A stretch of 41,176 nt of DNA. It comes from a virus (lineage: Duplodnaviria > Caudoviricetes). The stretch spans positions 1 to 41,176 of IMG/VR virus record IMGVR_UViG_3300017707_001413; one strand, 5' to 3'. Below, one piece after another: positions 6,895-37,020 of the stretch. Each line of letters starts with the position of its first letter. Within the stretch, counting starts at the first letter, position 1. The position numbers and the translations under genes were made by a program. The notes under the pieces are model-generated. The model was not told the origin of the DNA, searched no databases, and worked only from the letters and a program-made list of their open reading frames with translations.

Positions 6895-6920
6895 TTTCTA
6901 AACGCACCTCCCACCTCGCC

Positions 6921-7316: not shown

Positions 7317-7318
7317 AG

Positions 7319-7834
7319 TCAATCCACGCCAGCCGGTTTAAGCTTCAGCAGTCGGGGAGAGCGGAAGCGGTCATAGCAGGAACCGGCCGCGCGCAACATC
7401 ACGCCCTCGCCGCCCTCCTTGGTGATGCTGGAGAAAAGTTCGAGCAAGTGTTCAAGACCACGGCAAACCGCCTGTGGCGCCACGGAAGCGAAAGCGGGCA
7501 AGGAAACCGAGCGAAGAAAAGCGGTGCGTTCCTCAAACCGACCGGGAGCCGAGGGGGCATCGAACACCATCAAGCGCAGTTCCGACCAGTCCGAGCACTT
7601 CACCGACCGTTGCATCTCGTTGAACCGCCCGCGCCCCAGCCAAAGTTCGCCGTCAAGCGCATGGGCGGGAAGCGCCGCGCGCCAGGCAGCCGGAGCAGGA
7701 AGGGTATTGCCGTCACGCGTCACCAGCTCGGAACCCGTCCACATCACGCGCCAGCCGTCATATTTCTCGGACAGCCACCAGCCCGCCGGGGAAACCACGG
7801 CGTTGTAACGTTTGGCCAGCATGAACATGGACAA
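7319..7834 (-). CDS. ATP-dependent DNA ligase, adenylation domain only
   Basis: Motif I SEKYDGWR, III LDGELW, IIIa VFDAP, IV EGVMLR, V LLKLK; stops a few residues after motif V with no OB domain. Confidence 0.85.
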   Translation of the reverse strand: MSMFMLAKRYNAVVSPAGWWLSEKYDGWRVMWTGSELVTRDGNTLPAPAAWRAALPAHALDGELWLGRGRFNEMQRSVKCSDWSELRLMVFDAPSAPGRFEERTAFLRSVSLPAFASVAPQAVCRGLEHLLELFSSITKEGGEGVMLRAAGSCYDRFRSPRLLKLKPAGVD

Positions 7835-7872
7835 ACCATCGTCCCAAACCGCGCCCGGAGCGATTACAAAAG

Positions 7873-8610
7873 ATGAGTGGAATCCAAATCGACACCCGCC
7901 AGTTCAAGGAAGCGATCCGGTTCGTTCACCAGAACACCAGGAAAGACCTGGCCGAGATCCTGAACCAACGCGCGTTCAACGTGGCGGCGCGCGCCATTGA
8001 CGACATGAAGCCGGCACCCGGATCCGAACAAGGCACGCGGGGAAGGATCAAAGCCTACATGGACACGCCGCTTGGCGCACCCAAGCTGCGGGTCATTCAG
8101 TCAGGAAAACGCCGGGGACAACTTACGCGGAAGGGCCGGAAGCAAGATCGGCTCACCCGCAAGAACCTGATAGTGCAGGCCCGCCGGGCCAAGGCCGGGC
8201 TGACCGGACTTTACGGCATGGCCATGCGGATGGAAGCCGGGGAACTCAGCCGTCGGGCGCAAGTCGGAGTTGGCTTCCTGAAATCCCCATTCCTGCCGAT
8301 CATCAAGGGGCTTCATGCGTTGGTGAAATACAAGCGCGTCAGAACCGCGTGGGGCCGGATCAGCGTGTGGCCGGGGTCCAAGGGATACGGAAAGATCACG
8401 CCAGCCAAAGCGGGGTTCAATGTCTTTGTCGAAATGCTGATGCGATGGCAGGTGCCCGGCGCACCGACCAAGGTACAGCGCATGGTGTTGCCACATCTTC
8501 AAGCGGCCTTTGACGCAGAGGCGCGCGAGATGGTCCGCCACACCACCGAGAAACTCCAACAGACCGCCAACAAAGTAAACGCCAAGTGGCGCCGCAGCAC
8601 ATTTCCATGA
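7873..8610 (+). CDS. Putative neck / tail-completion protein
   Basis: Basic 245 aa ORF in the head-tail region; positional call. Confidence 0.45.
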   Translation: MSGIQIDTRQFKEAIRFVHQNTRKDLAEILNQRAFNVAARAIDDMKPAPGSEQGTRGRIKAYMDTPLGAPKLRVIQSGKRRGQLTRKGRKQDRLTRKNLIVQARRAKAGLTGLYGMAMRMEAGELSRRAQVGVGFLKSPFLPIIKGLHALVKYKRVRTAWGRISVWPGSKGYGKITPAKAGFNVFVEMLMRWQVPGAPTKVQRMVLPHLQAAFDAEAREMVRHTTEKLQQTANKVNAKWRRSTFP

Positions 8611-8633
8611 TCCATGACTCCTGCCCCATGCCT

Positions 8634-8660
8634 CCTGACCCCTGACCCCTGACTCCTGAC
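8634..8660 (+). repeat. Heptamer tandem repeat (CCTGACY) x~4
   Basis: CCTGACC CCTGACC CCTGACT CCTGAC directly before ATG 8661. Confidence 0.85.
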
Positions 8661-9119
8661 ATGAGCGCCAACAACATCACCCAGAAAGTTCAGAAAGCGG
8701 CCAAGGCATACCTCGACAGCGAAGATCTCAGCTTCATCACCGATGAAGAGACGCAGATCGTCTGCGGCATCTCACGCGGGGAAATGAACCTGACGCAAGT
8801 GATCTGCCAGTGCAAAAGCGCCGAGGCGGAAGTGCCGTGGGAAGGCAACTGGTCGGCGAGCCTGCGCGTCGAGATCCGCAGCCAGGCCGATGACGACGAC
8901 CAGGAAGGCACCGCGCACTTTGCCAACGCCGGGGAAGTCTTCGAAAAGTTTATGGTCAGCATCACGGACGGCCGCGCGGCCTTGAGCAGCCAGGCCATCG
9001 GCTTCACCTGCCAGCAGCTTTTGCCCGTCAGCCAGGGATGGGAAATCGAAGGCGGCTCATGGGTCAGCTTCCTTGAGCTGCGCATGGAATGCGCCGGCAC
9101 ATACTTCGACGTGAGCTGA
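8661..9119 (+). CDS. Putative tail terminator protein
   Basis: Acidic 152 aa ORF just before the major tail gene; positional call. Confidence 0.45.
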   Translation: MSANNITQKVQKAAKAYLDSEDLSFITDEETQIVCGISRGEMNLTQVICQCKSAEAEVPWEGNWSASLRVEIRSQADDDDQEGTAHFANAGEVFEKFMVSITDGRAALSSQAIGFTCQQLLPVSQGWEIEGGSWVSFLELRMECAGTYFDVS

Positions 9120-9126
9120 CCACCCG

Positions 9127-9151
9127 TTGACTCCCGCGCCATCAGTGAACG
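9127..9151 (+). promoter_or_regulatory. Late-gene motif copy 3
   Basis: TTGACTCCCGCGCCATCAGTGAACG upstream of the major tail gene. Confidence 0.65.
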
Positions 9152-9187
9152 AACTCGACCACCATCGAAACAACGCACTGAACTTTT

Positions 9188-9643
9188 ATGGCCATAGAAA
9201 TCCAGCAGGGAAAAGCGAAAATATTCGGACTTGGCGCTGCTGACCTGGTATTGGGTGCCGCCAGCGTGGCGGTGGAACAGACCATCACCGGATCAGACCT
9301 GAACTTTGAATCCAAGATCATCGAAATCGAAAACCAATACGGGAACACCGAAACGCTGATCTCGTCCAACCCGACGTTGACCCTTTCGATCAACTTCATG
9401 CCGACGGCGGCAACCAGGACACTGGCCATCACGGAAGCGCAAAAGTTTACCGCGATGACGCATTTGGTAAAGGTGGTGACCAGCGCGTTTGACGTGGATC
9501 TGTTCAACGGAAAATGGAACCTGATGGGCCTGCAAATCAGGGGCGCTAACACCGAGGCGATGACGTTCGTGTTGAGCCTGAAGGCATGGGTTGATTCCAC
9601 GACCACGCGCGACGCGCTCACCGCCGGAGTCGTGGCGGGTTAA
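9188..9643 (+). CDS. Putative major tail (tube) protein
   Basis: 151 aa, beta-rich, Thr/Ala-rich, before chaperone and tape measure. Confidence 0.55.
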   Translation: MAIEIQQGKAKIFGLGAADLVLGAASVAVEQTITGSDLNFESKIIEIENQYGNTETLISSNPTLTLSINFMPTAATRTLAITEAQKFTAMTHLVKVVTSAFDVDLFNGKWNLMGLQIRGANTEAMTFVLSLKAWVDSTTTRDALTAGVVAG

Positions 9644-9667
9644 ACACTGTAAAAGAGCGCAGAAAAA

Positions 9668-9781
9668 ATGACCGTAGAACAAGCAGAGAGACTAATAAAA
9701 GTCGCTGAACAAAACCGGTTACTACTGCGATTCATACACTGGACGCTTTGTATCCTTATCGGGGTTTTGCTGGCGTCTTAA
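9668..9781 (+). CDS. Small membrane peptide (37 aa)
   Basis: MTVEQAERLIKVAEQNRLLLRFIHWTLCILIGVLLAS, translated by hand; AT-richer than its flanks. Confidence 0.45.
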   Translation: MTVEQAERLIKVAEQNRLLLRFIHWTLCILIGVLLAS

Positions 9782-9800
9782 CAGGTAGAAAAAAAACACT

Positions 9801-10421
9801 ATGAAGGAACGCGAATGGGCACACGCCGCGTTCCCGGAGGCGATCACGGTCCTGCGCCTGCGGTTGCGGCCGTATTCCTGCGGGCACGAGATCACGCTTT
9901 GCCAGGTCGAAAGCCCGTTCCTCACCGGCCAGCGCGAGCCGACCATCACCGATCTCATGCTCGCCGCGCTCATCTGCTCCCAAACCTTCACCGACGGTCA
10001 AAAGCTGTTGCGCGATCCAAAGGCCGGCGGATGGCAGGTAAGCCTATGGCGCTGGCTGGCGTTGAGAAATCCGAACCAATACGCCGAAGAAATCCGCTTC
10101 ACCGACTACCTCACCCGAGGAACGTGGAGCCCGCCCACCGTGCGGAATAACGAACCGGGCATGACCTATCGCGAACTCAAGGCGCCGAGGACATGGAGGC
10201 TCATTCCGTTCCTCTGCCGCAACCTGGGGCTTACCGAAGCGGAGGCGCTGGACTTCCCGCTCGCGCGCGCGCACGCCTACTTCGCGGCGGAAGCCGACCG
10301 GGAGAACACCATGGACCTGGCCAGTGAAGAAGGAGACCACACCACCGAAGGCCGGTTGCTGGCGCATCTGAAGGATTTGGAAGCCCGCGCCGCGAAAGGA
10401 GAACCGGTATGGGACTTCTAA
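9801..10421 (+). CDS. Putative tail assembly chaperone
   Basis: Between tail tube and tape measure; 'LGLTEAEALDFPLARA' resembles chaperone C-termini. Confidence 0.5.
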   Translation: MKEREWAHAAFPEAITVLRLRLRPYSCGHEITLCQVESPFLTGQREPTITDLMLAALICSQTFTDGQKLLRDPKAGGWQVSLWRWLALRNPNQYAEEIRFTDYLTRGTWSPPTVRNNEPGMTYRELKAPRTWRLIPFLCRNLGLTEAEALDFPLARAHAYFAAEADRENTMDLASEEGDHTTEGRLLAHLKDLEARAAKGEPVWDF

Positions 10422-25034: not shown

Positions 25035-25064
25035 CGTAAAACGTGAAACGTGAAACGTAAAACG
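25035..25064 (+). repeat. Heptamer repeat (AAACGTR)
   Basis: CGTAAAACGTGAAACGTGAAACGTAAAACG; same unit at ~26910-26932 and 36990-37012. Confidence 0.8.
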
Positions 25065-25066
25065 GA

Positions 25067-25429: not shown

Positions 25430-26058
25430 ACGATTTCGAGCATGACAAGGAGTTGCAGATTGCGCTGTTGAAGCATCATCCGGCGTTGAAGCATCAGGGC
25501 ATTGATCCATTGTGGAGATGGATCGCGATCATCGGATGGATCACGGCGTTCGGGCTGATGGTGATCGCGGCGAGGGGGGAGGAAGTGACAGGGGAAAGGT
25601 TGAAAGTTGAAGGTAACCTGCAACCTGCAACCCGCAACCTGCAACCTGCAACCTGCAACCCGCAACCGAAGACTTTAATCACGGAACGATTCCTCGACGC
25701 ATTGGAGGAAGTCGAGAGCGGCAGGGATGCCCGCGCTGTCGGGGACCACGGACGGTCCCTGGGCAGCTATCAATTTAAGGCGGTGGCCTGGGCCCAGGTG
25801 AATACCTTGCGCGCTGCGCGGGGGCTTGGGACGCGGTCTTATCTTTTCTACGCGACGCACCGGGTCACCGCCCGACTTTACGCTCGCGAGTATCTCGGGT
25901 GGCTCGAATCCCACATGACCCGCGCGCTGCACCGTTCACCTACCCGCCCCGAGCTTTATGCGGTGTGGAATCTCGGTCCTGCGGGATTCCGGGCGCGCGG
26001 TTTCGATTTGCGGAAGTGCCCGGCGCATGTGCGGAGGGCGGGGGAGAGGTTGAATTGA
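25426..26058 (+). CDS. Lysozyme-like / lytic transglycosylase with N-terminal TM
   Basis: ALEEVESG..AVGDHGRSLGSYQF and WNLGP motifs; TM WIAIIGWITAFGLMVIAA. Confidence 0.7.
   Translation: MNDFEHDKELQIALLKHHPALKHQGIDPLWRWIAIIGWITAFGLMVIAARGEEVTGERLKVEGNLQPATRNLQPATCNPQPKTLITERFLDALEEVESGRDARAVGDHGRSLGSYQFKAVAWAQVNTLRAARGLGTRSYLFYATHRVTARLYAREYLGWLESHMTRALHRSPTRPELYAVWNLGPAGFRARGFDLRKCPAHVRRAGERLN
25615..25668 (+). repeat. Heptamer tandem repeat (AACCYGC) x7 inside the lysozyme gene
   Basis: AACCTGC AACCTGC AACCCGC AACCTGC AACCTGC AACCTGC AACCCGC AACCG. Confidence 0.9.
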
Positions 26059-26832: not shown

Positions 26833-26932
26833 AAGCTCAAAGCTCAAAGTTCAAAGCTCAAAGTTCAAAGCTCAAAGTTCAAAGCTCAAAGTTCAAAGCT
26901 AAAAGCTCAAAACGTGAAACGTAAAACGTAAA
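26833..26932 (+). repeat. Heptamer array (AAAGCTC/AAAGTTC) x~11 followed by AAACGTR x3
   Basis: Alternating AAAGCTC/AAAGTTC units, then AAACGTG AAACGTA AAACGTA. Confidence 0.9.
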
Positions 26933-26939
26933 GGACGAC

Positions 26940-27152: not shown

Positions 27153-28600
27153 ATCAATTCACGATCAACGGAGTGAACGGGGTGAAGGATCTGGTGGTGA
27201 GCATCGACGGGCCGGGGGTGTTCGTGGCCAGGGGGCCGAACGGGGCGGGGAAGTCGAACGCCATCGAGGCGATCAAGGCGGCAAACGGGGACAAGGACGC
27301 GAAGGCGGAGCCGTCCGACGGGTTCGCGAAGGGCGAGGTGCGCGGCGCAAGCGGAGAGGTGCTGATGGCGGTGGGGAACCGGCGGAAGCTGGCGGGCGAT
27401 CTGCCATCGGTGCGGCTGGTGTCCACGGGCGCGATTGGGCGGCTGATCGATCCGCAGATCGCGGACAGCGAGACGGCGGCGAAGGCGCGCATCAAGGCGT
27501 TGCTGACTTTGATGCCGCTGCCGGCGGATGACGCGGCGCGGATGGGGCTGACGGCGAATGACGAGGAGCTTCAGCTCTGGATCAAGAGTGATCCATCGAA
27601 GGACGCGGCGGAGATGGCGGAGGCGGTGCGGAAGCGGGCGAACGAGCTGGCGAACGAGCTGGAGAAGCGCAGCGCAGAGGCGTCGGGCGAGGAGCTTTCG
27701 ATGAACGCGCTGATCGAGGGTCTGGGGCAGTTGGATTTCGAGGCGGGCAATTTGAAGGTGCAGGAGACGATCCTTCAGCAGATGGCGAATGCGGCGTCAG
27801 TGAAGGCGGAGACGGCACAGGCGAGGTTGACGTTGGAGCGTCAGCAGGAAGAGGCAAGGAAGGCGATGGGCGAGAGGCCGGACATCGAGAAGGCGCAGGC
27901 GGATTTGGATGCGGCGAATCGATCTGTGTTTGAGGCGCAGGCCGCGTTGAAAGTGGCAGCGGCGATGTGGGAGGAAAAAGGCCGGGCGTTGAACGGGGCG
28001 AAGCGGGCACTGATGGTTTACGCGGCGCAAACCGAAATTCTGAGGCAAGAGATCAAAGGCGCCACGACGCAGGAGGCGATTGAAGCGGAGCAGGCGGCGG
28101 ATGCACAGCGGGGCCGGGTGGAACGGGCGCGGAAGGTGGACCAGGCGAAGAGCTTCATGGCGTCGGCGATGGCGGCGAAGGAGCGTCGGGAGAAGTGCGC
28201 GGATCGTGCGGTGGTATTGCGCGGCATCGCGAAGGGGACGGCGACGGCCTTGGGAGAATTGCTGGCGCGGCGCGGGTTGCCGGGGCTTGGGATCACGGAG
28301 GGTCGGCTGGTGGTGTTGGACCCGGCGGCACCGGGCGGGATGAAGGATTTCGATTTGCGCCTGAGCTTCGGCGAGCGGGTGCGGGCGGCGCTGGGGATTG
28401 CTCTTGCCGGAATGACCAATGACCAAGGCCCAATGTCCAATGACAGAAGGCTGCCGGTGATGGCGTTGGAGCCGGGTTTCTGGCTGGCGCTGGATGACGG
28501 GCACAGGGCGGAGGTGAACCGGATCGCGAGGGAACGCGGGGTGTGCCTGATCACGGAGGAGCCGGGGGATGGAGAACTGAGAATTGAGAGGATGGCGTGA
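27149..28600 (+). CDS. SMC/SbcC-like ABC-ATPase with coiled coil
   Basis: Walker A GPNGAGKS, long coiled coil, signature LSFGE, degenerate Walker B. Confidence 0.75.
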   Translation: MNQFTINGVNGVKDLVVSIDGPGVFVARGPNGAGKSNAIEAIKAANGDKDAKAEPSDGFAKGEVRGASGEVLMAVGNRRKLAGDLPSVRLVSTGAIGRLIDPQIADSETAAKARIKALLTLMPLPADDAARMGLTANDEELQLWIKSDPSKDAAEMAEAVRKRANELANELEKRSAEASGEELSMNALIEGLGQLDFEAGNLKVQETILQQMANAASVKAETAQARLTLERQQEEARKAMGERPDIEKAQADLDAANRSVFEAQAALKVAAAMWEEKGRALNGAKRALMVYAAQTEILRQEIKGATTQEAIEAEQAADAQRGRVERARKVDQAKSFMASAMAAKERREKCADRAVVLRGIAKGTATALGELLARRGLPGLGITEGRLVVLDPAAPGGMKDFDLRLSFGERVRAALGIALAGMTNDQGPMSNDRRLPVMALEPGFWLALDDGHRAEVNRIARERGVCLITEEPGDGELRIERMA

Positions 28601-28691
28601 ACGAAAAAGCTAACTGACGTATGCCCGCCACTGACTACCAAAACAAGAAAACCGTGAACTGGCATACGTTCACAGCAGCGCCTGGTTAGGC
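28596..28691 (-). other. attC site (cassette 16, most distal)
   Basis: Plus strand: CGTGAAC..TGACGTATGCC..GGCATACGTTCA..GTTAGGC. Confidence 0.75.
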
Positions 28692-28704
28692 GCACCTGAC
28701 CATT

Positions 28705-28905
28705 ATGAGCATCCAAGACATCCAAAAAAGAATCGACGACATAAAAGCGAGCGTGGGCGACGACGAGAGCGCGCACGGAATGGAAGACGCGCTCAGACGC
28801 GACTTCATCGCCTACCTCGCAAGCGGCGGGGCGGAAGACACCCAGAGCAAAGCGGCGCTCGTGCTCACAACCGAGGGACTGAGCTTTGCGCGGTGGTGCG
28901 CCTAA
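28705..28905 (+). CDS. Cassette 16 ORF, small hypothetical protein
   Basis: Cassette ends GTTAGGCGCAC / GTGCGCCTAAC (11/11 complementary); stop is the TAA of the R box. Confidence 0.7.
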   Translation: MSIQDIQKRIDDIKASVGDDESAHGMEDALRRDFIAYLASGGAEDTQSKAALVLTTEGLSFARWCA

Positions 28906-28985
28906 CGCCTAGCTATGGCACGGCGAAACAGGACTCCGATTGCAAGTGGCGGATTATCGCCGTTGCCATAAGCGTCTTGTTAGGC
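28900..28985 (-). other. attC site (cassette 15)
   Basis: GCCTAAC..GCTATGGCACGGCGA..TCGCCGTTGCCATAAGC..GTTAGGC. Confidence 0.85.
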
Positions 28986-29025
28986 TTTTTTGGGATGGTA
29001 TGGAATGAACAATAAGCGAAAGAAT

Positions 29026-29475
29026 ATGGAAATATACATAGTAAAAGAGTATGAAGCAATCGAGGGAGGCGGAGGTCACGAATCCATTATTGGGGCATGG
29101 TATGACAAGGAATCCGCCGAAAAATATGCCGCAAACCAGAACGGGGGGCGTTACATGCAGTGGGATGTTGAAGAGGTGGATGTCATGGATACTCAGCCTA
29201 ACTCCAAAGCTCAGCCAATGCCGCGCTCTCCCTCAACTCCCGCAGACCTCAACGGCCCCGTGCGCGGCATTGGCTGTGGCGGTTTGTTAGGCTGTATTTG
29301 TCACCGCTGCATTCGCGAGAAGGACATACGAAACGAATGGGGTATGCCGATAAGCTCCTCGCAAATGATCGTGTGCCCCGAATGCGGAAACAAACGATGC
29401 CCGCACGCCAGCGACCATCGATTCGCCTGCACGAAATCAAACCAACCCGGACAGGCCGGTAGCGTCTATGCTTAA
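29026..29475 (+). CDS. In-frame fusion of cassette 15 and cassette 14 ORFs (C-terminal Cys-rich domain)
   Basis: Reads through attC 29196-29292; internal ATG at 29218 starts the CHRC..CPECGNKRCPHASDH domain. Confidence 0.6.
   Translation: MEIYIVKEYEAIEGGGGHESIIGAWYDKESAEKYAANQNGGRYMQWDVEEVDVMDTQPNSKAQPMPRSPSTPADLNGPVRGIGCGGLLGCICHRCIREKDIRNEWGMPISSSQMIVCPECGNKRCPHASDHRFACTKSNQPGQAGSVYA
29196..29292 (-). other. attC site (cassette 14)
   Basis: GCCTAAC..CAGCCAATGCCGCGC..GCGCGGCATTGGCTG..GTTAGGC. Confidence 0.85.
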
Positions 29476-29582
29476 CTCCTGAGATGAGCCACGAGTCCGC
29501 AGAACACTCTATGGAAACGATAACTCAAAAACCTACCGAGAACGGACAGCCGGGCTTGTTGCGCTCTGGCGATTTGTTCGGC
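29470..29582 (-). other. attC site (cassette 13)
   Basis: GCTTAAC..GAGCCACGAGTCCG..CGGGCTTGTTGCGCTC..GTTCGGC (more degenerate). Confidence 0.65.
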
Positions 29583-29906
29583 GAGATTGTCCGCAAGCAC
29601 AGCCTCGCAGTCGAATCACTGACGGAACAACAGCTCGCCGAAGTCATACGGCAAGCAATCGCATCCGGCGACATCGTGCGGAACGTGATGCACGACGGCT
29701 CCGCGCAGGCGATCACCTACATCCCGTATCGCGAAGTCTCGCGCCTACGGGACCAGTATCACGAACTGCTCTACGCAGTCGCCAGCAAGCACGACGGCGA
29801 GACGCGGCACGAGACGGCGCTGCGCTATATCCGCGAACGCGAGGAACGCACCGAAGGCCCGGCCTCTTCTTCGCCGAACGCTCCGCATGAGCGACCGCCG
29901 ACATGA
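29484..29906 (+). CDS. Cassette 13 ORF, phage hypothetical protein (start 29484 or 29511, inside attC)
   Basis: Cassette ends GTTCGGCGA / TCGCCGAAC; 'YHELLYAVASKHDGETRHETALRYI'. Confidence 0.65.
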   Translation: MSHESAEHSMETITQKPTENGQPGLLRSGDLFGEIVRKHSLAVESLTEQQLAEVIRQAIASGDIVRNVMHDGSAQAITYIPYREVSRLRDQYHELLYAVASKHDGETRHETALRYIREREERTEGPASSSPNAPHERPPT

Positions 29907-29963
29907 GACGCCCGAACTCGCCAGAAACGCTTGCCGGCGGTTCGCTCCATGCGGTGGTTGGGC
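29873..29963 (-). other. attC site (cassette 12)
   Basis: GCCGAAC..CCGCATGAGCGACCGCCG..CGGCGGTTCGCTCCATGCGG..GTTGGGC. Confidence 0.9.
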
Positions 29964-29989
29964 GTCCGTCGAATTATGAAAATAGACGC

Positions 29990-30018
29990 TTGACAATGCG
30001 AGCTAGCACGCATAGAGT
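29990..30018 (+). promoter_or_regulatory. Sigma70 promoter inside cassette 12 with operator in the spacer
   Basis: TTGACA-N17-TAGAGT; near-palindrome ATGCGAGCTAGCACGCAT. Confidence 0.7.
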
Positions 30019-30026
30019 AGGCACGT

Positions 30027-30266
30027 ATGAAACAACAAATCACTGCGGTCAAAATAACGGCGGGGCAATATCGCCTCGGAAACCTCGTAGTCGTCAAACA
30101 TCCTCCGACGTTCGCGGGCACAACAACAACGTGGTGCAGGGCGGACAATCAAGGCGGCGGAATGCTCGGCTACTCGCTAGCGGAAGTGGTCGAACTGGCA
30201 AACAAGCCGATGTCGTATGCCTACGACCTCGCCAACGGCACGAAACTGCATCCCGCATCCAAATGA
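30027..30266 (+). CDS. Cassette 12 ORF1, hypothetical
   Basis: ATG 8 nt after the -10 box; ATGA-coupled to ORF2. Confidence 0.6.
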   Translation: MKQQITAVKITAGQYRLGNLVVVKHPPTFAGTTTTWCRADNQGGGMLGYSLAEVVELANKPMSYAYDLANGTKLHPASK

Positions 30267-30496
30267 ACAAGTGCCCCAAATGCGGCCACACATGGCCGGA
30301 CACGAAGCGCGCCAGCGGTGGAAAAGCTCGCTGGCGCGGACTCACCAAAAAGCAACGCTCACAAGCTGCCAGCGAGGCGGCGAAAGCACGATGGGCAAGG
30401 ACGCCCAACGTCGCCGATTCTCGAAATAACTCGGTGAGCAGCCCAACGACCAAGCTCAGCAACCACTGGCCGACAGTGACGAAGGACAACCAATGA
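30263..30496 (+). CDS. Cassette 12 ORF2, zinc-knuckle + basic helix protein
   Basis: MNKCPKCGH..SGGKARWRGLTKKQRSQAASEAAKARW. Confidence 0.65.
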   Translation: MNKCPKCGHTWPDTKRASGGKARWRGLTKKQRSQAASEAAKARWARTPNVADSRNNSVSSPTTKLSNHWPTVTKDNQ

Positions 30497-30556
30497 ACCA
30501 AAACGCATCGAACGTAAAGAGGACACCGGCTGTTGCGGTGCAGCGCGTGGTTAGGT
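30441..30556 (-). other. attC site (cassette 11)
   Basis: GCCCAAC..GCTCAGC..GCCG..CCGGCTGTTGCGGTGCAGC..GTTAGGT; homologous to attC 35619-35745. Confidence 0.75.
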
Positions 30557-30825
30557 GCGTCGAGGTTTCAAAAGAACTTCAAGACAATCTGGCCGTGATG
30601 AAAAGACTGATCGGAGACAAATGGGAAGCCAGCGCCGCCGAATACAAAACCATCGTGAGCAGAGTGATGATCGCTACCAACGACGACAACCCAATCTCCT
30701 GCGCGCTTCCGATGGCGAAAGAAATGTCCAGGCGAGGACACAGCCCGCTCATGCTGCTGGCCGTCGCAACTGAAATGAGCGAAGCACCTAACGCAGAGTC
30801 CAGCCGCCCCGCGCCGAAAATCTGA
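30493..30825 (+). CDS. Cassette 11 ORF, hypothetical (starts in attC loop)
   Basis: Cassette ends GTTAGGTGC / GCACCTAAC; RBS AAGGA + ATG inside attC. Confidence 0.65.
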   Translation: MNQNASNVKRTPAVAVQRVVRCVEVSKELQDNLAVMKRLIGDKWEASAAEYKTIVSRVMIATNDDNPISCALPMAKEMSRRGHSPLMLLAVATEMSEAPNAESSRPAPKI

Positions 30826-30898
30826 ACGCTATGGAAACGAAAACGAGCAACGAAAATCAGGACGCTTGCGCGGGGTTGGCTGCGACGACGGGTTATGC
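30786..30898 (-). other. attC site (cassette 10)
   Basis: ACCTAAC..GTCCAGCCGCCCCGCGC..GCGCGGGGTTGGCTGCGAC..GTTATGC. Confidence 0.85.
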
Positions 30899-31100
30899 CA
30901 TTCGCGCCATGAATCCACGCGAGGGCGACAAAATCACACAGGGCTCGACCACAATAGAAGTGAAGTGGGTGGCGGACGGAACTGTAGCCTACGTGGTGCA
31001 AAACGAATCGCAAAAGCTAGACCGACAAGCCCCGCTCGAAGACTGGCCGAGGCTGATGCGAATAGCATTGGACAAGGGGGCAACATTCCATGCGGCATAA
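30831..31100 (+). CDS. Cassette 10 ORF, hypothetical
   Basis: Cassette ends GTTATGCC / GGCATAAC; ATG in the attC loop. Confidence 0.6.
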   Translation: METKTSNENQDACAGLAATTGYAIRAMNPREGDKITQGSTTIEVKWVADGTVAYVVQNESQKLDRQAPLEDWPRLMRIALDKGATFHAA

Positions 31101-31186
31101 CGATCCGGATCAGAGACCCGGCCAATGAAGACTCTCGATTGCAACCACGACGCGATGGCCGGGTTCTCTGCATCCGGTTGTTCTCC
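31095..31186 (-). other. attC site (cassette 9)
   Basis: GCATAAC..CCGGATCAGAGACCCGGCCA..TGGCCGGGTTCTCTGCATCCGG..GTTCTCC. Confidence 0.9.
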
Positions 31187-32021
31187 ATCCGGTCGAACTC
31201 ACCTCGACCTGTTCAGTGGAATCGGTGGCTTCGCGCTCGCCGCGCAAGCGGCGGGATACTCAACCATCGGCTTTTCTGAAATCGAACCCTATGCCTGCAA
31301 AATCCTCAAACGACACTGGCCCGACGTGCCCAACCACGGCGACATCCGAAATATCCGAAACGTGCGGGCCGACCTCATCACAGGCGGATTTCCTTGCCAG
31401 CCTTTCAGTCTCGCCGGGAAGCGACTCGGCGCGGCGGATGACCGTCACCTCTGGCCGGAAATGTGCCGAGTTATTGGCGAGGCGCGACCAACTTGGGTGC
31501 TTGGTGAGAATGTGCCTGGAATCATCGGTCTGGAACTCGACGGCGTGCTATCTGACTTGGAAGGTCTCGGCTACGCCGCGTGGCCGCTTGTTATTCCGGC
31601 TGTCGCCTGCGATGCCAGACACCGAAGAGACCGGCTTTGGGTTGTGGCCCACTCCCAATGTCTGTGGCGGCGGGAACCCGCCGCACATCCTGACGAAGCA
31701 CAAGGGCCACTACATCCGACCAAGCGGGAAGAAGGCGCACCTCGGACTGGACCAAGCCGTGAAGCTGTGGCCGACGCCTCGGGCGAGCGAAAACGAAAAC
31801 CGGCAGACGAAGCCAACTCCGTCGCAGATAGCGGGAACACATGGCAAGAGTCTGGCGGCGGAATGCGGTGGCGCCCTGAACCCGAACTGGGTCGAGTGGC
31901 TGATGGGATACCCAATCGGCCACACCGCCTCCGTGGACTTGGAAACGCCATCGTCCCGCAAGTCGCGGAAACGCTCCTGCGCATGATGGCGAGGATGGAG
32001 AACGATAAAATCCTGCCATGA
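31125..32021 (+). CDS. Cassette 9: DNA cytosine-5 methyltransferase (alpha polypeptide)
   Basis: Motif I DLFSGIGG, IV GGFPCQPFS, VI ENV, VIII HRRDRLW, X LGNAIVPQVA. Confidence 0.92.
   Translation: MKTLDCNHDAMAGFSASGCSPSGRTHLDLFSGIGGFALAAQAAGYSTIGFSEIEPYACKILKRHWPDVPNHGDIRNIRNVRADLITGGFPCQPFSLAGKRLGAADDRHLWPEMCRVIGEARPTWVLGENVPGIIGLELDGVLSDLEGLGYAAWPLVIPAVACDARHRRDRLWVVAHSQCLWRREPAAHPDEAQGPLHPTKREEGAPRTGPSREAVADASGERKRKPADEANSVADSGNTWQESGGGMRWRPEPELGRVADGIPNRPHRLRGLGNAIVPQVAETLLRMMARMENDKILP
31216..31986 (+). CDS. Overlapping +1-frame ORF, probable beta polypeptide of the C5-MTase (TRD + motif IX)
   Basis: 256 open codons inside the MTase gene; WPTP repeats and LNPNWVEWLMGYP (motif IX-like); true start uncertain. 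Confidence 0.65.
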   Translation: MESVASRSPRKRRDTQPSAFLKSNPMPAKSSNDTGPTCPTTATSEISETCGPTSSQADFLASLSVSPGSDSARRMTVTSGRKCAELLARRDQLGCLVRMCLESSVWNSTACYLTWKVSATPRGRLLFRLSPAMPDTEETGFGLWPTPNVCGGGNPPHILTKHKGHYIRPSGKKAHLGLDQAVKLWPTPRASENENRQTKPTPSQIAGTHGKSLAAECGGALNPNWVEWLMGYPIGHTASVDLETPSSRKSRKRSCA

Positions 32022-32094
32022 ATCCCGCGCCCTCCAGCTCCGCCTCGTCACCGACTCCCTCGCGGGAGTCATTGGCAGCGATGCCTTGTTGTCC
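31997..32094 (-). other. attC site (cassette 8)
   Basis: GGAGAAC..ATCCTGCCATGAATCCCGCG..CGCGGGAGTCATTGGCAGCGAT..GTTGTCC. Confidence 0.85.
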
Positions 32095-32875
32095 GTCTTT
32101 TGTGTATTCCGCGCAGGGCTCACTATGGGGAGAAAAGGAGGTAGTCGGATTCGGGAATTATGCGTTCCGCGTCGTGGAAATCGGCAAGCCGGAAGCAAAC
32201 GCCGTGATCATCGCAAACCACTACTCGAAAAAAACCGCCACCGATGCCCACACGCGCCTCTGCTATGCCGTGGAAATCGACGGGGAGAGAATGGGCGTGC
32301 TGCAATTCGGATACGCCATGAATCCCGCCAGTGGCTCGGCTGTGGTGGCAGAAACCGGGCTGAATGACTACCTGGAACTGAATCGGATGTGGCTCGATGA
32401 CCGCGCCCCGCGCAACACCGAAAGCAAGGCGATAGCCTACTGCCTGCGGACGATCCGCCGCCGGATGCCAACCGTCGAATGGGTGATGAGCTTCGCGGAT
32501 GAACGCTGCGGAAAGCTGGGCGTGGTCTATCAGGCCGCAAACTTCGGATACTACGGCGGACACGTCTCCACGTTCTGGGAAATCGACGGTGAAATGATCC
32601 ACAATGCGATAGCCACGAACGGCAAGCGGAAACGCAAGGACTCGCTCGACATGGAAAAGGCGATCCGCCACGACCTACGGCAATTCCGATACATCTACTG
32701 GCTGCAAAAGCGGGCGCGGAAACGCTGCCTACTCACTGAGCAGCCATACCCCAAACATGCGTCAGAGGGCTCTGTGGAGAGCCGCCTCGTTACCAACGAG
32801 GAGGGGCAGGGTCAGATCCTGCCTGACGCTCCATTTTCTTCGGACAACGACCAAGCTCAGCGACCTGCCAAATGA
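32018..32875 (+). CDS. Cassette 8: Mom-like adenine-modification protein (GNAT fold)
   Basis: IIANHYS, GVLQFG, YLELNRMWLDD..PRNTES, SFADERCG..GVVYQAANF are hallmarks of the phage Mu Mom family. Confidence 0.85.
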   Translation: MNPAPSSSASSPTPSRESLAAMPCCPSFVYSAQGSLWGEKEVVGFGNYAFRVVEIGKPEANAVIIANHYSKKTATDAHTRLCYAVEIDGERMGVLQFGYAMNPASGSAVVAETGLNDYLELNRMWLDDRAPRNTESKAIAYCLRTIRRRMPTVEWVMSFADERCGKLGVVYQAANFGYYGGHVSTFWEIDGEMIHNAIATNGKRKRKDSLDMEKAIRHDLRQFRYIYWLQKRARKRCLLTEQPYPKHASEGSVESRLVTNEEGQGQILPDAPFSSDNDQAQRPAK

Positions 32876-32947
32876 TCCAAAGCGATCCAATTGCCTCAAT
32901 GCGTCGTGCCGGGCGAACCGCAGGTTCGCTGAAGCGCGTGGTTACAC
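32842..32947 (-). other. attC site (cassette 7)
   Basis: GGACAAC..GCTCAGCGACCTGC..GCAGGTTCGCTGAAGC..GTTACAC. Confidence 0.9.
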
Positions 32948-33108
32948 CGCGTCCGGACGATCCGGGATGGCTGGAGGACTGGCCAAGGCGAAACAAGGCC
33001 GGTGACGCAGTGGTGATGTGGGATGAACTTATCGCGTGCATGAACCTGCGGCATCAGCGGTGTAACGCAGAAGTCAGCGACCGGCGCGGAGCCGGTTCGC
33101 TGCACTGA
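32872..33108 (+). CDS. Cassette 7 ORF, small hypothetical
   Basis: Cassette ends GTTACACCGC / GCGGTGTAAC; starts and stops inside attC sites. Confidence 0.5.
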   Translation: MIQSDPIASMRRAGRTAGSLKRVVTPRPDDPGWLEDWPRRNKAGDAVVMWDELIACMNLRHQRCNAEVSDRRGAGSLH

Positions 33109-33118
33109 CGGGTTCTGC
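33060..33118 (-). other. attC site (cassette 6), classic 59-base element
   Basis: Minus strand: GCAGAAC CCGTC AGTGCAGC GAACCGGC TCCGC GCCGGTC GCTGACT TCTGC GTTACAC. Confidence 0.92.
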
Positions 33119-33122
33119 ATTT

Positions 33123-33413
33123 ATGACGAAAATTGACTATTACGAAGGACTGAACCGCGACTCGAAACTGACCGTGGAACTCGACGTGCCGACAGTCGCG
33201 AAAGAAATCTGCGCGATGAACTACGGCGCGCACCGGCTGCTCTCAGCGATGGTCCGCGAACTCCGAGCGAAGAACATGGAATACGTGAACTACCAACGCG
33301 AGAAGGACGCCGCATTGCCGGAAAATCGGCGGCTTAATCTGCCCGCTGAACGCGAACGGTCGCCGCTGGCCGACGCAATCGAAGCCGCACTAAACGCGGG
33401 GCACACCTACTAA
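33123..33413 (+). CDS. Cassette 6 ORF, hypothetical
   Basis: Cassette ends GTTCTGCATTTA / TAAATGCAGAAC (12/12). Confidence 0.7.
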   Translation: MTKIDYYEGLNRDSKLTVELDVPTVAKEICAMNYGAHRLLSAMVRELRAKNMEYVNYQREKDAALPENRRLNLPAERERSPLADAIEAALNAGHTY

Positions 33414-33415
33414 AT

Positions 33416-33508
33416 GCAGAACGGTGCGGATCAGCGACCGGGCCACACGAAAGGCTCGGATTGCAAGTGACGTGCGATGGCCCGGTTCGCTGCATCCGCT
33501 TGTTAGGG
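33416..33508 (-). other. attC site (cassette 5)
   Basis: Minus strand: CCCTAAC AAGCG GATGCAGC GAACCGGGCC..GGCCCGGTC GCTGATC CGCACC GTTCTGC. Confidence 0.92.
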
Positions 33509-33546
33509 CGCAGTTTCCGGGGCGTGAAAATAAATGCAGAATCTTC

Positions 33547-33574
33547 TTGCAATACCCAGCGATGGGTATAGAGT
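33547..33574 (+). promoter_or_regulatory. Sigma70 promoter inside cassette 5 with operator in the spacer
   Basis: TTGCAA-N16-TAGAGT; inverted repeat ATACCCA-GCGA-TGGGTAT. Confidence 0.65.
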
Positions 33575-33580
33575 GAGCAC

Positions 33581-33763
33581 ATGAATAAAGCAACTCTGAC
33601 GGGAATGAGAATGATGGCCGAAGCGATGACCGCAACGGATAACTACGCTGCCCAAATCGAAGTGGATGGAAAATGGCAGACCGTGATCGACAAGCTCAAC
33701 AAGGCCGAAGCCGAAAAGATGGCGAGCCGATGGGAGCGCAGCCGGGTGGTGAAGGTATGGTAA
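33581..33763 (+). CDS. Cassette 5 ORF1, hypothetical
   Basis: ATG 6 nt after the -10 box (leaderless-type). Confidence 0.6.
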   Translation: MNKATLTGMRMMAEAMTATDNYAAQIEVDGKWQTVIDKLNKAEAEKMASRWERSRVVKVW

Positions 33764-33969
33764 AATGCCCACACTGCGGCGGGGAAATAAACCCCGCCGC
33801 ACTCCTCGGCAGCATCTCGACGCCAGCGAAGGCGCGGGCTGCTCGCGCGAACGCCAAGCTCGGCGGATGGCCGAAGGGCCGGAAGCGTGGAAAAACCAAG
33901 CGCGTCTGCCTGCGCCCTAACGCTCCGCATGAGCCATGCGGCGCGAAGAAAGAAAACCGTGAACACTGA
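33757..33969 (+). CDS. Cassette 5 ORF2, zinc-knuckle + basic protein
   Basis: MVKCPHCGG..STPAKARAARANAKLGGWPKGRKR. Confidence 0.65.
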   Translation: MVKCPHCGGEINPAALLGSISTPAKARAARANAKLGGWPKGRKRGKTKRVCLRPNAPHEPCGAKKENREH

Positions 33970-34026
33970 AACCAATATCCGAACTGAAGGGCGTCCGCCG
34001 CATTGTGCTCCATGCGGTTGTTCTCC
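33915..34026 (-). other. attC site (cassette 4)
   Basis: CCCTAAC..CCGCATGAGCCATGCGGCG..CGCCGCATTGTGCTCCATGCGG..GTTCTCC. Confidence 0.88.
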
Positions 34027-34636
34027 TGCGTCAAATTCTAAAATGCGCTTCTCAGATGAGCATCGAGCAAATCTGTCCGCTGCCCTATCAGGTCGAAAAT
34101 TTTCTGATGAGCACCGCAAAAAACTCTCGGAAAGCTACAGGATGACATATAAAAACGGTCGCCAGCCTTCGGTAATCGCCGCAAACAAACTCGCTGAATG
34201 GACGAAGCAAAACCTGACTGGAAAGCCGCTGTCTCCAGAACACAATGAAAACGCCCACGCCCCGCTGCGTGGGAAACTCCGAACATCTGAAAAAGTAAAA
34301 CGCGGCAAGCTCACTGGAGCACTATCCGGCCAAATCAGAGACGACAGAGGCGTAACACACCGCTTTGTAAATCTCGTCCACTTCGTAAGAACGAATCCTC
34401 ATCTGTTCAAGGCTGATGAAATCCAATGGCGTAAAGACGGGCGAGGACATGAAGTGTGCCGTGCCTCAAAAGGGCTGGCGAATCTGTTTGGGAAAGGAAA
34501 GGTCGTGCCGGGATCGTGGCACGGCTGGACTGTCGTAAGCATCCATGAACGACGCTTCAATGACGGGAACGACCTACTCGCCCGGAACGATCAGGAGAAC
34601 GCTCCGCATGAGCGACCGCCGACCAAAACGCTATGA
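33959..34636 (+). CDS. Cassette 4: NUMOD3-motif DNA-binding protein
   Basis: FSDEHRANLSAALSGRKFSDEHRKKLSES and GKPLSPEH repeats; GTG start in the attC loop (start uncertain). Confidence 0.65.
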   Translation: MNTETNIRTEGRPPHCAPCGCSPASNSKMRFSDEHRANLSAALSGRKFSDEHRKKLSESYRMTYKNGRQPSVIAANKLAEWTKQNLTGKPLSPEHNENAHAPLRGKLRTSEKVKRGKLTGALSGQIRDDRGVTHRFVNLVHFVRTNPHLFKADEIQWRKDGRGHEVCRASKGLANLFGKGKVVPGSWHGWTVVSIHERRFNDGNDLLARNDQENAPHERPPTKTL

Positions 34637-34683
34637 TTGCAACTGAAACGCCAGCGGCGGTTCGCTCGATGCGGTTGTTAGAC
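34594..34683 (-). other. attC site (cassette 3)
   Basis: GGAGAAC..CCGCATGAGCGACCGCCG..GCGGCGGTTCGCTCGATGCGG..GTTAGAC. Confidence 0.9.
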
Positions 34684-35373
34684 GGCCAGATTGTGACGCC
34701 ATACTACGAAGATGAATACGCGACGCTCTACAATATGGACTGTGAACAAGGAATCGAAGGCGTGAAATTCGATGTCCTTCTGACCGATCCGCCCTACTTC
34801 CTGCCGATCAATTCATACGTCGGGCGGCGTGGTGAAGGCTACGAGAAAACCATGCTCGGCGACATGAGCGTGCTGCGCGGCTACTTCAAGATGATGTTCC
34901 GAAAGTTCCGGGCGGCGATGCCTGACACTGGCAGCATCTACGCCTTCTGTGATGCCAAAAGCTATCCAATCTTTTTTGAAGCGATGTTCCCGCTGTGCAA
35001 GCACGTCCGGCTGATAATCTGGGACAAGCAAGTTAGCTACAACGGCTACACATGGCGGCATCAGCACGAACTCATAGCGTGGGGCGAACTCGAAAACACC
35101 GTGCGCGTGCCAACCGGCGACGGCGACATCATCCGATGCCGTGGCGTGCTACAAGACGACAAACAACATCCCGCCGAAAAGCCGGTGCGACTGCTTGAGG
35201 CAATCTGTAAAAAACACGAAGGCGTCATCTGTGACCCATACGCGGGAAGCGGTTCGACGCTGGTAGCTGCGAAGATATGCGGTCGAAAAAGCATAGGCTT
35301 CGAGATGGAGGAAAAGCACTGTGAAACAGCAGCAAAGCGACTACAACAAACAACGCTCGGCCTGGCCGTCTAA
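34633..35373 (+). CDS. Cassette 3: DNA N4-cytosine/N6-adenine methyltransferase (beta class)
   Basis: LTDPPY, IIWDK, HPAEKP, DPYAGSGST; cassette ends GTTAGACGGCCAG / CTGGCCGTCTAAC (13/13). Confidence 0.92.
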   Translation: MIATETPAAVRSMRLLDGQIVTPYYEDEYATLYNMDCEQGIEGVKFDVLLTDPPYFLPINSYVGRRGEGYEKTMLGDMSVLRGYFKMMFRKFRAAMPDTGSIYAFCDAKSYPIFFEAMFPLCKHVRLIIWDKQVSYNGYTWRHQHELIAWGELENTVRVPTGDGDIIRCRGVLQDDKQHPAEKPVRLLEAICKKHEGVICDPYAGSGSTLVAAKICGRKSIGFEMEEKHCETAAKRLQQTTLGLAV

Positions 35374-35498
35374 CGAGAAAGGTCAGCGATGAGCTGTCAA
35401 AAATGCGGTGGTGAACATAGCACAATGGCGTGTGATGACGAAGGCGAGCAACGAACGAGAAAGGCGCAAAGCTCATTCGCTGCACCGTCTGGATATGC
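35368..35498 (-). other. attC site (cassette 2) with non-canonical ATC/GAT core
   Basis: GTCTAAC..GGTCAGCGATGAGC..GCTCATTCGCTGCACC..GATATGC. Confidence 0.85.
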
Positions 35499-35685
35499 CG
35501 CGATGGAGGCCACGGTGACGGCTCTCGAACGACGGGTATCCGAACTGGAGAAGCACTCGCATCCGCCCGTGAATCTGCGACCCGCCGTGGAAGCCATCGT
35601 GGAAGAATGTCTCTCGCGGCATATCGACCAAGCTCACCCACAGCCGGGGGCGGCAGGGGTGGAGCGCAAAGGAGACAACCAATGA
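35389..35685 (+). CDS. Cassette 2 ORF, hypothetical
   Basis: Cassette ends GATATGCCGCGA / TCGCGGCATATC (12/12). Confidence 0.55.
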   Translation: MSCQKCGGEHSTMACDDEGEQRTRKAQSSFAAPSGYAAMEATVTALERRVSELEKHSHPPVNLRPAVEAIVEECLSRHIDQAHPQPGAAGVERKGDNQ

Positions 35686-35745
35686 ACCAAGAAACATCGA
35701 ACGTAGAGAGCGCACCGGCTGTTGCGGTGGAGCGCGTGGTTAGCC
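35619..35745 (-). other. attC site (cassette 1)
   Basis: GCATATC..GCTCACCCACAGCCGG..CCGGCTGTTGCGGTGGAGC..GTTAGCC. Confidence 0.85.
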
Positions 35746-35969
35746 GCCTGCCAGCGTGTAAAGGAACAAACTGCGGATGCACAGATGGGGTCAGCCACTC
35801 CAAGGAATGCCGCGAAGAATACGAAGCTGCCACGGCCATGCCCTACGACGAACAATGGCTGCACGAACCAGATGACGGGCGAGGCTGGAAGTGCCACGTC
35901 TGCAAATACGGCGGCTCGGCAAACAACAGCGCGAACACCTTCTGCGCGAACTGCCACAGGCACAAATGA
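35682..35969 (+). CDS. Cassette 1 ORF, Cys-rich with RanBP2-like zinc finger
   Basis: CKGTNCGCTDGVSHSKEC and WKCHVC..N..CANC; RBS AAGGAG + ATG in the attC loop; ends GTTAGCCGCCT / AGGCGGCTAAC. Confidence 0.65.
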   Translation: MNQETSNVESAPAVAVERVVSRLPACKGTNCGCTDGVSHSKECREEYEAATAMPYDEQWLHEPDDGRGWKCHVCKYGGSANNSANTFCANCHRHK

Positions 35970-35973
35970 AGGC

Positions 35974-36010
35974 GGCTAACAGTGATTAACAAACTCCTGA
36001 TCTGTTAAAT
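35974..36010 (-). other. Putative attI site
   Basis: Minus strand: ATTTAACAGATCAGGAGTTTGTTAA-TCACT-G^TTAGCC; an R core without an attC hairpin, directly upstream of intI. Confidence 0.65.
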
Positions 36011-36970
36011 ATGAACACCGAGGCTGCAATTCAAAGACTTGTGGAAGTGTGCCGGAGGCAGCACAAATCGCTGTCAACAGAGAGGGTTTACTCGCATTGG
36101 CTACGGGACTTTTGCAGGTTTGTTCCGACCGTAGATCCTGCTCTTTCCAGTGAGCGAAAGATGGAGGCTTATTTGACGATGCTGGCCCGGAAAAGGGATG
36201 TATCCGCATCGACGCAGAATCAGGCGTTCAATGCGGTGTTGTTCTTTTATCGGCGCGTGCTCGGGCAGGAATTGAAGGACATCGACGGACTGCGCGCGAC
36301 GCGGCCGGATCGGGTGCGGTATGCGCCGACGGTGGATGAGGTGCGCCAGTTGTTGCCGATGGTGCGCGATGTGGGTGGGTATCCGACGAACTTGATCACG
36401 CGGATGCTTTACGGGTGCGGTTTGCGTGTGAGTGAGCCGCTGGCGTTGCGGGTGAAGGATCTGGATCTGGTGAACAGCCAGGTGCGAATCATCGAAGCGA
36501 AGAATCGAAAGGATCGCGTGGTCAAGCTGCCGTGTTCCATCGTGGAGGAGTTGCGAGCGCAGATGGATTTCGCGCGGGCGGTCTGGCGGCGGGACGTGGA
36601 GGGAAAGTTGCCGGTGGTGTTGCCGCATCAGTTGGCGAGGAAATATCCGGCTTATCAATTCGCCTGGTCGTGGGCCTGGGTGTTTCCGATGCGGAACGCT
36701 TGCCGGCATCCGCGCACGGGTGAATGGGTGCGCTGGCATGTGCTGCCGTGCAATGTGCAGCGGGCGGTTCAGGAGGCGGCGCAAAAGCTGGAACTGCCGA
36801 TCACGCCCCACTGTTTGCGCCACGCCTACGCGACGCATTCGCTGAACCGGGGCGTGAACATCAAGGCGTTGTCAGAGGCGATGGGGCACGCGCAGATCGA
36901 GACGACGGCGGGGTATTGCCACGCGGAGGCGTTGAGCGTGCCGAGTCCGTTGGAATTGGTGATGGCATGA
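36011..36970 (+). CDS. intI: Integron integrase (tyrosine recombinase)
   Basis: SASTQNQAFNAVLFFY, LYGCGLRVSE, IntI-specific insertion LPHQLARKYP..W.WVFP..HPRTG..RWH, HCLRHAYATH, MGH..TTAGY. Confidence 0.92.
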   Translation: MNTEAAIQRLVEVCRRQHKSLSTERVYSHWLRDFCRFVPTVDPALSSERKMEAYLTMLARKRDVSASTQNQAFNAVLFFYRRVLGQELKDIDGLRATRPDRVRYAPTVDEVRQLLPMVRDVGGYPTNLITRMLYGCGLRVSEPLALRVKDLDLVNSQVRIIEAKNRKDRVVKLPCSIVEELRAQMDFARAVWRRDVEGKLPVVLPHQLARKYPAYQFAWSWAWVFPMRNACRHPRTGEWVRWHVLPCNVQRAVQEAAQKLELPITPHCLRHAYATHSLNRGVNIKALSEAMGHAQIETTAGYCHAEALSVPSPLELVMA

Positions 36971-37020
36971 CGGTGGATGAGATTTCAGAAAACGTGAAAC
37001 GTGAAACGTAAAGGAGCGAG

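What the first reader, a model, noticed from the sequence alone, without database searches (positions are those of the whole stretch)
28596..36010. All cassette ORFs are inverted relative to attC and co-transcribed with the phage
Seen: the extra (unpaired) bases lie on the right arm of the plus strand. The minus strand therefore reads as a canonical attC top strand (e.g. CCCTAAC AAGCG GATGCAGC GAAC..GCTGATC CGCACC GTTCTGC) pointing away from intI. Yet all 16 cassettes encode ORFs on the plus strand, toward intI. Known: in ordinary integrons most ORFs follow the top strand and are read from Pc beside attI. Inference: the array is read from the phage early operon and from cassette-internal promoters, the newest cassette is last rather than first, and intI is probably co-transcribed (only ~30 nt between the attI core and its ATG). 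This implies a phage-specific cassette pool.
Basis: partly seen in the sequence, partly recalled or inferred. Interest (0 to 1): 0.9.

Follow-up and report, generated by a model that had tools for sequence, protein, structure and literature searches.

The report
Phage integron with backwards gene cassettes
This freshwater phage carries a complete gene-swapping system (an integron with 16 cassettes) whose genes lie on the strand opposite to bacterial integrons, as in dozens of related viruses, so they are likely read as part of the phage's own transcript and likely form a phage-specific cassette format.

Summary
Confirmed. The window holds an integron integrase with intact catalytic residues (TIGR02249 above cut-off), an attI-like site 30 nt before its start, and 16 attC hairpins. 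Bulge position, a covariance model trained on a bacterial array (16 of 16 sites best on minus) and cassette evolution (protein heads stay, tails change) all put the attC top strand on minus. The genes are on plus. In related viral arrays 25 of 55 plus-strand ORFs and 0 of 55 minus-strand ORFs match known families. Bacterial chromosomal arrays, including one with a sister integrase, are the reverse. Ten of 16 cassette genes start inside their own attC. Genes that cross the swap point do so in one frame (43 of 43) and take their tail from the next attC, but exact stop/start overlap holds for only 11 of 43. Cargo is rich in DNA-modification genes. Transcription and recombination were not observed: no RNA run was listed and no excision joint was seen. 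Phage integrons are published (Qi 2023); this layout was not found in eight literature searches. This scan noted it before on other genomes. New variant of a known kind.

The parts
36011..36970 (+). intI, integron integrase, 319 aa; R139 K164 H267 R270 H293 Y302 intact, IntI insertion present
   Evidence: TIGR02249 274.9 bits vs cut-off 265; best PDB match VchIntIA 2A3V E 4e-42; alignments
35974..36010 (-). attI-like simple site (core 35974-35980, no hairpin) and 30-nt gap to intI ATG; pattern conserved in related phage integrons
28596..28691 (-). attC1, terminal, degenerate; its outer box overlaps the stop of the upstream AAA/SMC-like phage gene
28900..28985 (-). attC2
   Evidence: 41.7 bits minus, 11.2 plus
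29196..29292 (-). attC3; read through in frame (cassette 2-3 fusion ORF)
29470..29582 (-). attC4, degenerate
   Evidence: partial hit
29873..29963 (-). attC5
30441..30556 (-). attC6, preceded by a 38-nt remnant with a second core at 30403
30786..30898 (-). attC7
31095..31186 (-). attC8
31997..32094 (-). attC9; holds ATGA stop/start overlap
32842..32947 (-). attC10; ATGA overlap
33060..33118 (-). attC11 (59 bp)
33915..34026 (-). attC13
34594..34683 (-). attC14; ATGA overlap
35368..35498 (-). attC15; its cassette has a GAT/ATC core at both ends instead of GTT/AAC
35619..35745 (-). attC16; ATGA overlap
   Evidence: (partial hit)
28705..28905 (+). cassette 1 ORF, phrog_10733
29026..29475 (+). cassette 2 ORF (weak DUF7336) fused in frame through attC3 to cassette 3 ORF
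29511..29906 (+). cassette 4 ORF, unnamed family with 220 homologues
29990..30496 (+). cassette 5: sigma70-like promoter (29990-30018) and two small ORFs (30027-30266, 30263-30496)
30493..30825 (+). cassette 6 ORF, unknown
30831..31100 (+). cassette 7 ORF, unknown
31125..32021 (+). cassette 8: C5-cytosine methyltransferase, with an overlapping second frame (within 31216-31986) matching phrog_1008
32018..32875 (+). cassette 9: Mom-family DNA modification protein
32872..33108 (+). cassette 10 ORF, about half attC-encoded, doubtful
33123..33413 (+). cassette 11 ORF, 8 full-length homologues
33547..33969 (+). cassette 12: promoter-like site (33547-33574) and two small ORFs (33581-33763, 33757-33969); same layout as cassette 5
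33959..34636 (+). cassette 13: NUMOD3/homing-endonuclease-like ORF
34633..35373 (+). cassette 14: N6/N4 DNA methyltransferase
35389..35685 (+). cassette 15 ORF, unknown
35682..35969 (+). cassette 16 ORF (Cys-rich), next to attI

Best explanation
This is a complete phage-borne integron with normal attI/attC polarity but with its cassette genes written on the attC bottom strand, so that they are likely read by the phage's one-directional early transcript and two cassette-borne promoters rather than from a Pc at attI. Shown: IntI, attI-like site, 16 attCs, polarity, gene strand, recurrence in related viruses, past reshuffling. Because each attC travels with the gene on its 3' side in the message, it sits at the gene's 5' end. 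It often supplies the start codon and first residues (10 of 16 here). Genes that cross the crossover point read it as Asn in one frame and take their stop and tail from the next attC. Inferred: IntI excises bottom-strand hairpins and inserts at attI, so new cassettes land last in the message, just before intI. The fixed frame keeps proteins terminated after any reshuffle. Selection acts on anti-restriction cargo (methyltransferases, Mom).
For: Polarity. Heads stay, tails change: of 88 anchored homologues of cassette 4, 20 end in PN plus a tail, with 19 different tail starts, while 12 of the 20 share one of two heads. C5-MTase and Mom relatives also diverge right after the Asn. Reshuffling: a cassette's own two ends are complementary in 15 of 16 here and 88 of 131 in viral arrays, against 7 of 131 within linear sites. 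Strand: 41 viral arrays gave 111 plus, 5 minus, 19 uncalled; 8 genome arrays gave 23 minus, 5 plus, 7 uncalled. Family matches were 25 of 55 plus and 0 of 55 minus in viruses, 9 minus and 1 plus in genomes. The sister integrase L048 has the same attC family with canonical genes. Frame: 43 of 43, 10 of 10 family-matched, open frames 96 vs 14 vs 21 of 131 sites. Strict promoter motif 9 plus, 0 minus in 109 kb.
Against: No transcript, protein or recombination was observed. The promoter scan of the window is not above chance. Exact stop/start overlap in only 11 of 43 crossings, a near start in 12, none in 20. Canonical attCs also have more stops in that frame (29 vs 19 and 16 of 39), so part of the frame bias is built into attC. 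Some phage arrays are canonical (TJE1, Rctr41k). Six of 16 window ORFs lack homology support. The contig is linear, estimated 42% complete.
Confidence: 0.74

Rival explanations
1. The layout is selected through replication, not transcription: with genes co-directional with the fork, an inverted array puts the recombinogenic bottom strand on the lagging-strand template, raising excision and shuffling during infection. Compatible with the main reading as an added effect.
For: Bottom strand on the lagging template raises excision in V. cholerae (PMC13108822, passages). Flanks have GC skew +0.21 to +0.24 on plus.
Against: Origin and replication mode are unknown. The skew can come from codon or transcription bias; the structural region has none. 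It does not explain starts inside attC or the fixed frame.
Confidence: 0.12
2. A relic: an array fixed once in an ancestor, no longer shuffled; the attCs are only domesticated 5' ends of phage genes.
For: Sites 1, 4 and 6 are degenerate; cassettes 2-3 are fused; no excision joint in the contigs of the one run.
Against: Catalytic residues intact; 15 of 16 cassettes keep perfect own-end complementarity; 19 different tails on 20 close homologues; array GC skew 0.015 against 0.2 in the flanks; inverted arrays in at least four IntI groups.
Confidence: 0.07
3. Polarity is really flipped: this IntI recombines the other strand, so each hairpin follows its gene as usual and only the bulges look reversed.
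For: Homologous bodies occur with more than one head family, so hairpins were exchanged at times.
Against: The hairpin-less site is at the intI end; tails vary far more than heads; K211, Y212 and W221 align with VchIntIA K, Y and W of the IntI insertion (their role in bulge recognition is recalled); the sister integrase serves a canonical array.
Confidence: 0.04
4. The array is transcribed from a Pc inside intI on minus, as antisense or non-coding RNA, and the plus ORFs are silent stock.
For: Class 1 Pc lies inside intI1, so the short gap does not exclude one.
Against: A relaxed minus-strand promoter motif near intI occurs in only 5 of 40 viral loci (also only 3 of 9 canonical controls, so a weak test); plus ORFs are intact and coupled.
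Confidence: 0.03

Closest known systems
Canonical integrons (class 1 intI1/attI1/Pc; V. cholerae sedentary chromosomal integron, VchIntIA PDB 2A3V)
   Same: IntI family and catalytic residues, attI next to the intI 5' end, attC anatomy, attC top strand pointing away from intI, cassette end complementarity
   Different: Genes on the bottom strand and co-directional with intI; attC at the gene's 5' end and translated; 30-nt attI-intI gap; embedded in a phage operon
Phage-borne integrons and CALINs (Qi et al. 2023, PMC9892861)
   Same: attC arrays in phage genomes, orphan DNA methyltransferase cargo
   Different: Their complete integrons are captured host or class 1 integrons; TJE1 is canonical; uniform inversion and translated attCs are not described in the parts read (1-4 of 7, supplement by term search)
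Inverted-integrase integrons (Treponema type; PMC4889954 passages) and Rctr41k (KX853513)
   Same: intI and cassette genes end up on one strand
   Different: There intI is flipped relative to attC and the genes stay canonical (Rctr41k: array downstream of intI); here intI/attC is normal and the genes are flipped
ORF-11 coupling at attI1 and translation effects of attC (PMC8876359, PMC11511950, passages)
   Same: Translation across att sites shapes array expression
   Different: Here the start, N-terminal head and C-terminal tail of cargo proteins are encoded in attC, in a shared frame

Membership tests
Integron | IntI-family tyrosine recombinase with the IntI-specific insertion and intact catalytic residues | tested here: met
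Integron | attC sites: R''/L''/L'/R' boxes, unpaired central spacer, extrahelical bases on one arm | tested here: met
Integron | attI simple site beside intI at the array end | tested here: met
   hairpin-less core with conserved flank at 35974; function inferred
Integron | Cassettes mobile as units | tested here: met
   own-end complementarity and changed neighbours; indirect
Integron | IntI-catalysed bottom-strand recombination | not testable with these tools
   needs a recombination assay; sequence evolution is consistent
Canonical (Pc-expressed) integron | Most cassette ORFs on the attC top strand | tested here: not met
Canonical (Pc-expressed) integron | Pc promoter near attI or inside intI facing the array | tested here: inconclusive
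   no minus-strand site; weak motif test
Inverted-integrase integron | intI on the same strand as the attC top strand | tested here: not met
   intI plus, attC top strand minus
CALIN | attC cluster without a neighbouring intI | tested here: not met
   intI adjacent
Sedentary chromosomal integron | Homogeneous attCs at a chromosomal location | tested here: not met
   attCs 59-131 bp and diverse, against mostly 99 bp in L048; phage context

The most novel reading that the evidence does not exclude
Phages run their own integron format: ordinary phage early genes are turned into inverted cassettes whose attC encodes the translation start and head, and IntI rebuilds an anti-restriction operon, and the protein tails, during infection. 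The format recurs in several IntI lineages, one next to IntI1. Because un-cassetted versions of the same genes exist, these families show cassette genesis in progress.
Probability: 0.35. Interest if true: 0.92.

Novelty: new variant of a known kind. Interest (0 to 1): 0.76.

Why it matters
The textbook reason for attC strand choice is to orient genes for Pc. Here the same chemistry serves a mirror-image array, so orientation is set when a cassette is made, not by the integrase. It puts the integron on the phage side of the arms race (methyltransferases, Mom, Lar, PAPS-reductase-like cargo in relatives), while bacterial arrays hold defence systems. It offers paired cassette and non-cassette versions of one gene, a handle on the open question of how cassettes are made. 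It also warns that tools assuming gene-then-attC misassign cassettes and protein ends in viral data.

Tried and rejected
Rfam: no match. RNA: no RNA holder listed; one DNA run, possibly the source. Its contigs show no cassette-skipping joint, only attC pieces of other phages with other neighbours; contigs drop rare variants. DNA folding energy does not separate the strands. A first coding model trained per locus was noisy and was replaced. The 5 minus calls left in viral arrays look like shadow frames on inspection, and one has a C5-MTase match on plus. Longest-ORF calls are weaker (99 plus, 35 minus, 1 tie). Mixed attC alignments were poor and not used. In the tree (quick method, not finished) the CAN labels of L012, L017 and L138 are ties, not canonical arrays. 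Gene-anchored test: 57 of 61 C5-MTase and 63 of 68 Mom relatives had no flanking attC; 3 and 3 were inverted, 1 and 2 had a lone opposite-type hit, too few to estimate the pool. Host vs viral cassette proteins: no match among 44 x 143, but none among the host set either, so uninformative. MW202573 and P12002L gave only weak model hits pointing to inversion (E 1.7-2 and 0.025). No structure or complex prediction was run.
Full report
Context. The window is a 41-kb virus record (linear, CheckV 42% complete) from a freshwater metagenome. Terminase, portal, head, an HTH gene, an AAA/SMC-like gene, exonuclease, Dam and replication-initiator genes all lie on plus (outside the array only plus ORFs were scanned).

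The observation. Sixteen hairpins and one hairpin-less core delimit 16 cassettes of 218-902 bp between the stop of the SMC-like gene and intI. intI passes TIGR02249, matches VchIntIA and keeps its catalytic residues. Extrahelical bases lie on the R''-L'' arm by definition (PMC2727003, passages). Here they lie on the plus-right arm, so the top strand is minus. The scanner was checked on class 1 and Vibrio sites and on shuffles (0 sites in 20 of 20). A covariance model from 13 attCs of the canonical bacterial array L048 scored all 16 sites best on minus. So intI, attI and attC are arranged normally; only the genes are flipped.

Real cassettes. The two 7-bp ends of a cassette are complementary in 15 of 16 cases, whereas only 2 of 16 linear sites are. 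In 39 viral arrays the figures are 88 and 7 of 131. Cassette 15 carries GAT/ATC at both ends, so cassette 16 went into a GAT core. This fits the GWT tolerance reported for IntI1 genome sites (10.1101/2022.09.11.507474, passages). Homologues give a polarity test that does not use the bulges. For cassette 4 (220 homologues; the best 98 examined, 88 anchored), 20 end in PN plus a tail, all among the best 33. They have 19 different tail starts, while 12 share one of two heads. The crossover is therefore at the plus-left box, as bottom-strand recombination predicts.

Recurrence. Ninety-five viral loci were fetched by the integrase. After dropping duplicates, 41 had two or more detected attCs upstream of intI; the rest were too short there or had fewer sites. 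A codon model called 111 intervals plus, 5 minus, 19 uncalled; 38 of 41 arrays were majority-plus and 3 tied (two near-duplicate pairs remain in this count). Eight genome arrays gave 23 minus, 5 plus, 7 uncalled; two of the plus calls are L052, which groups with phage integrases. I sent 149 of 201 paired ORFs to Pfam and PHROG: 25 of 55 viral plus ORFs matched (24 without a duplicate) and 0 of 55 minus. In genomes 9 minus ORFs matched and 1 plus (L052). Further host arrays gave 12 canonical and 2 inverted by longest ORF. In a quick tree, inverted arrays fall in at least four groups, one containing IntI1, and L048 sits beside the window's group with the same attC family. Number and direction of origins were not tested. 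Exceptions exist: TJE1 and Rctr41k are canonical. L162 and L172 have opposite-type sites downstream of intI whose genes I did not examine.

Consequence of the flip. Each attC lies at the 5' end of its gene. Ten of 16 genes here start inside it, and 42 of 107 viral genes can. Of 15 internal junctions, four genes stop at the TAA of the box, one stops just before it, and nine cross with AAC (ATC at site 16) read as a codon. One crosses in another frame but is in frame with a remnant box 38 nt upstream. In relatives 43 of 43 crossings are in that frame. Given stop availability (78, 50, 47 of 84 sites) the chance for the 31 non-TAAC cases is about 1e-11, though related loci are not independent. ATGA inside viral attCs favours the frame that overlaps such stops (58 vs 18 and 30; 5, 3, 4 in genome sites). 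Coupling is partial: five exact overlaps in the window, and 11 of 43 in relatives with 20 lacking a nearby start. One junction (attC3) fuses two cassettes.

Expression, inferred. The array sits within a run of plus genes, with 30 nt from attI core to an intI start that lacks a ribosome-binding motif. Cassettes 5 and 12 carry promoter-like sites 6-8 nt before an ATG. A strict motif occurs 9 times on plus and never on minus in 109 kb of viral arrays, but the general scan is not above chance. All 39 viral arrays are A-rich on plus. No expression data were available.

Literature. Eight searches found phage integrons only in Qi 2023 (parts 1-4 of 7 read, supplement searched by term), which does not describe uniform inversion. 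The other eleven papers were read as term passages. Subscription papers and bioRxiv supplements were not visible. This scan's notes hold 49 findings with the same words and several on the frame lock, one marked as partly fallen. These are leads, not support; the heads-and-tails test was prompted by one of them.

Verdict. A real integron in a new, phage-adapted layout. Anatomy and recurrence are shown; transcription, activity and selective cause are inferred.

Noticed in passing
window 35492-35498 and 35619-35625: Cassette 15 has a GAT/ATC core at both ends, so the next cassette inserted at a non-GTT core.
   Followed up: partly
window 30403-30440: 38-nt remnant with a second core before attC6; it restores the ATGA overlap that attC6 (11 nt shorter than its relative attC16) would otherwise lose.
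   Followed up: partly
window 31216-31986 within 31125-32021: Two overlapping plus-strand frames in one cassette, both matching methyltransferase PHROGs: possibly a two-chain C5 methyltransferase.
   Followed up: partly
window 29990-30496 and 33547-33969; L143, L005, L011: Two-gene promoter cassettes with a small Cys-pair, Lys/Arg-rich second protein; the ATG lies 6-8 nt after the -10 box, suggesting leaderless messages.
   Followed up: partly
L048, L049, L050, L055, L056, 30-50 nt upstream of intI: A conserved palindrome (GGAC...GTCC) precedes chromosomal relatives of intI and was not seen in the phage ones; possible operator.
   Followed up: no
window 35995-36013 and related phage loci: A conserved GTT-containing motif abuts the intI start codon; possible extra IntI site or promoter element.
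   Followed up: no
L148, L149, L151, L155, L157, L158, L169, L170, L171: Viral integrases with inverted arrays group with class 1 IntI1 in the quick tree (support 98-99).
   Followed up: partly
L129 (Rctr41k) 4680-10101: A phage integron with the array downstream of intI and canonical genes: a second way to make everything co-directional.
   Followed up: partly
L036 1748-2910: Second attC cluster of opposite direction beside a minus-strand methyltransferase, so also inverted.
   Followed up: partly
window 26835-26935, 25045-25065, 25615-25670, 36985-37015: Short tandem low-complexity repeats between phage genes, some recurring at several places.
   Followed up: no
P0017, P0020, P0022, P0027, P0044 (cassette 4 family): Homologues without the PN tail keep the xF(G/E) motif that in the cassette is encoded by the R'' box, hinting that the box came from the gene's own sequence.
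   Followed up: partly
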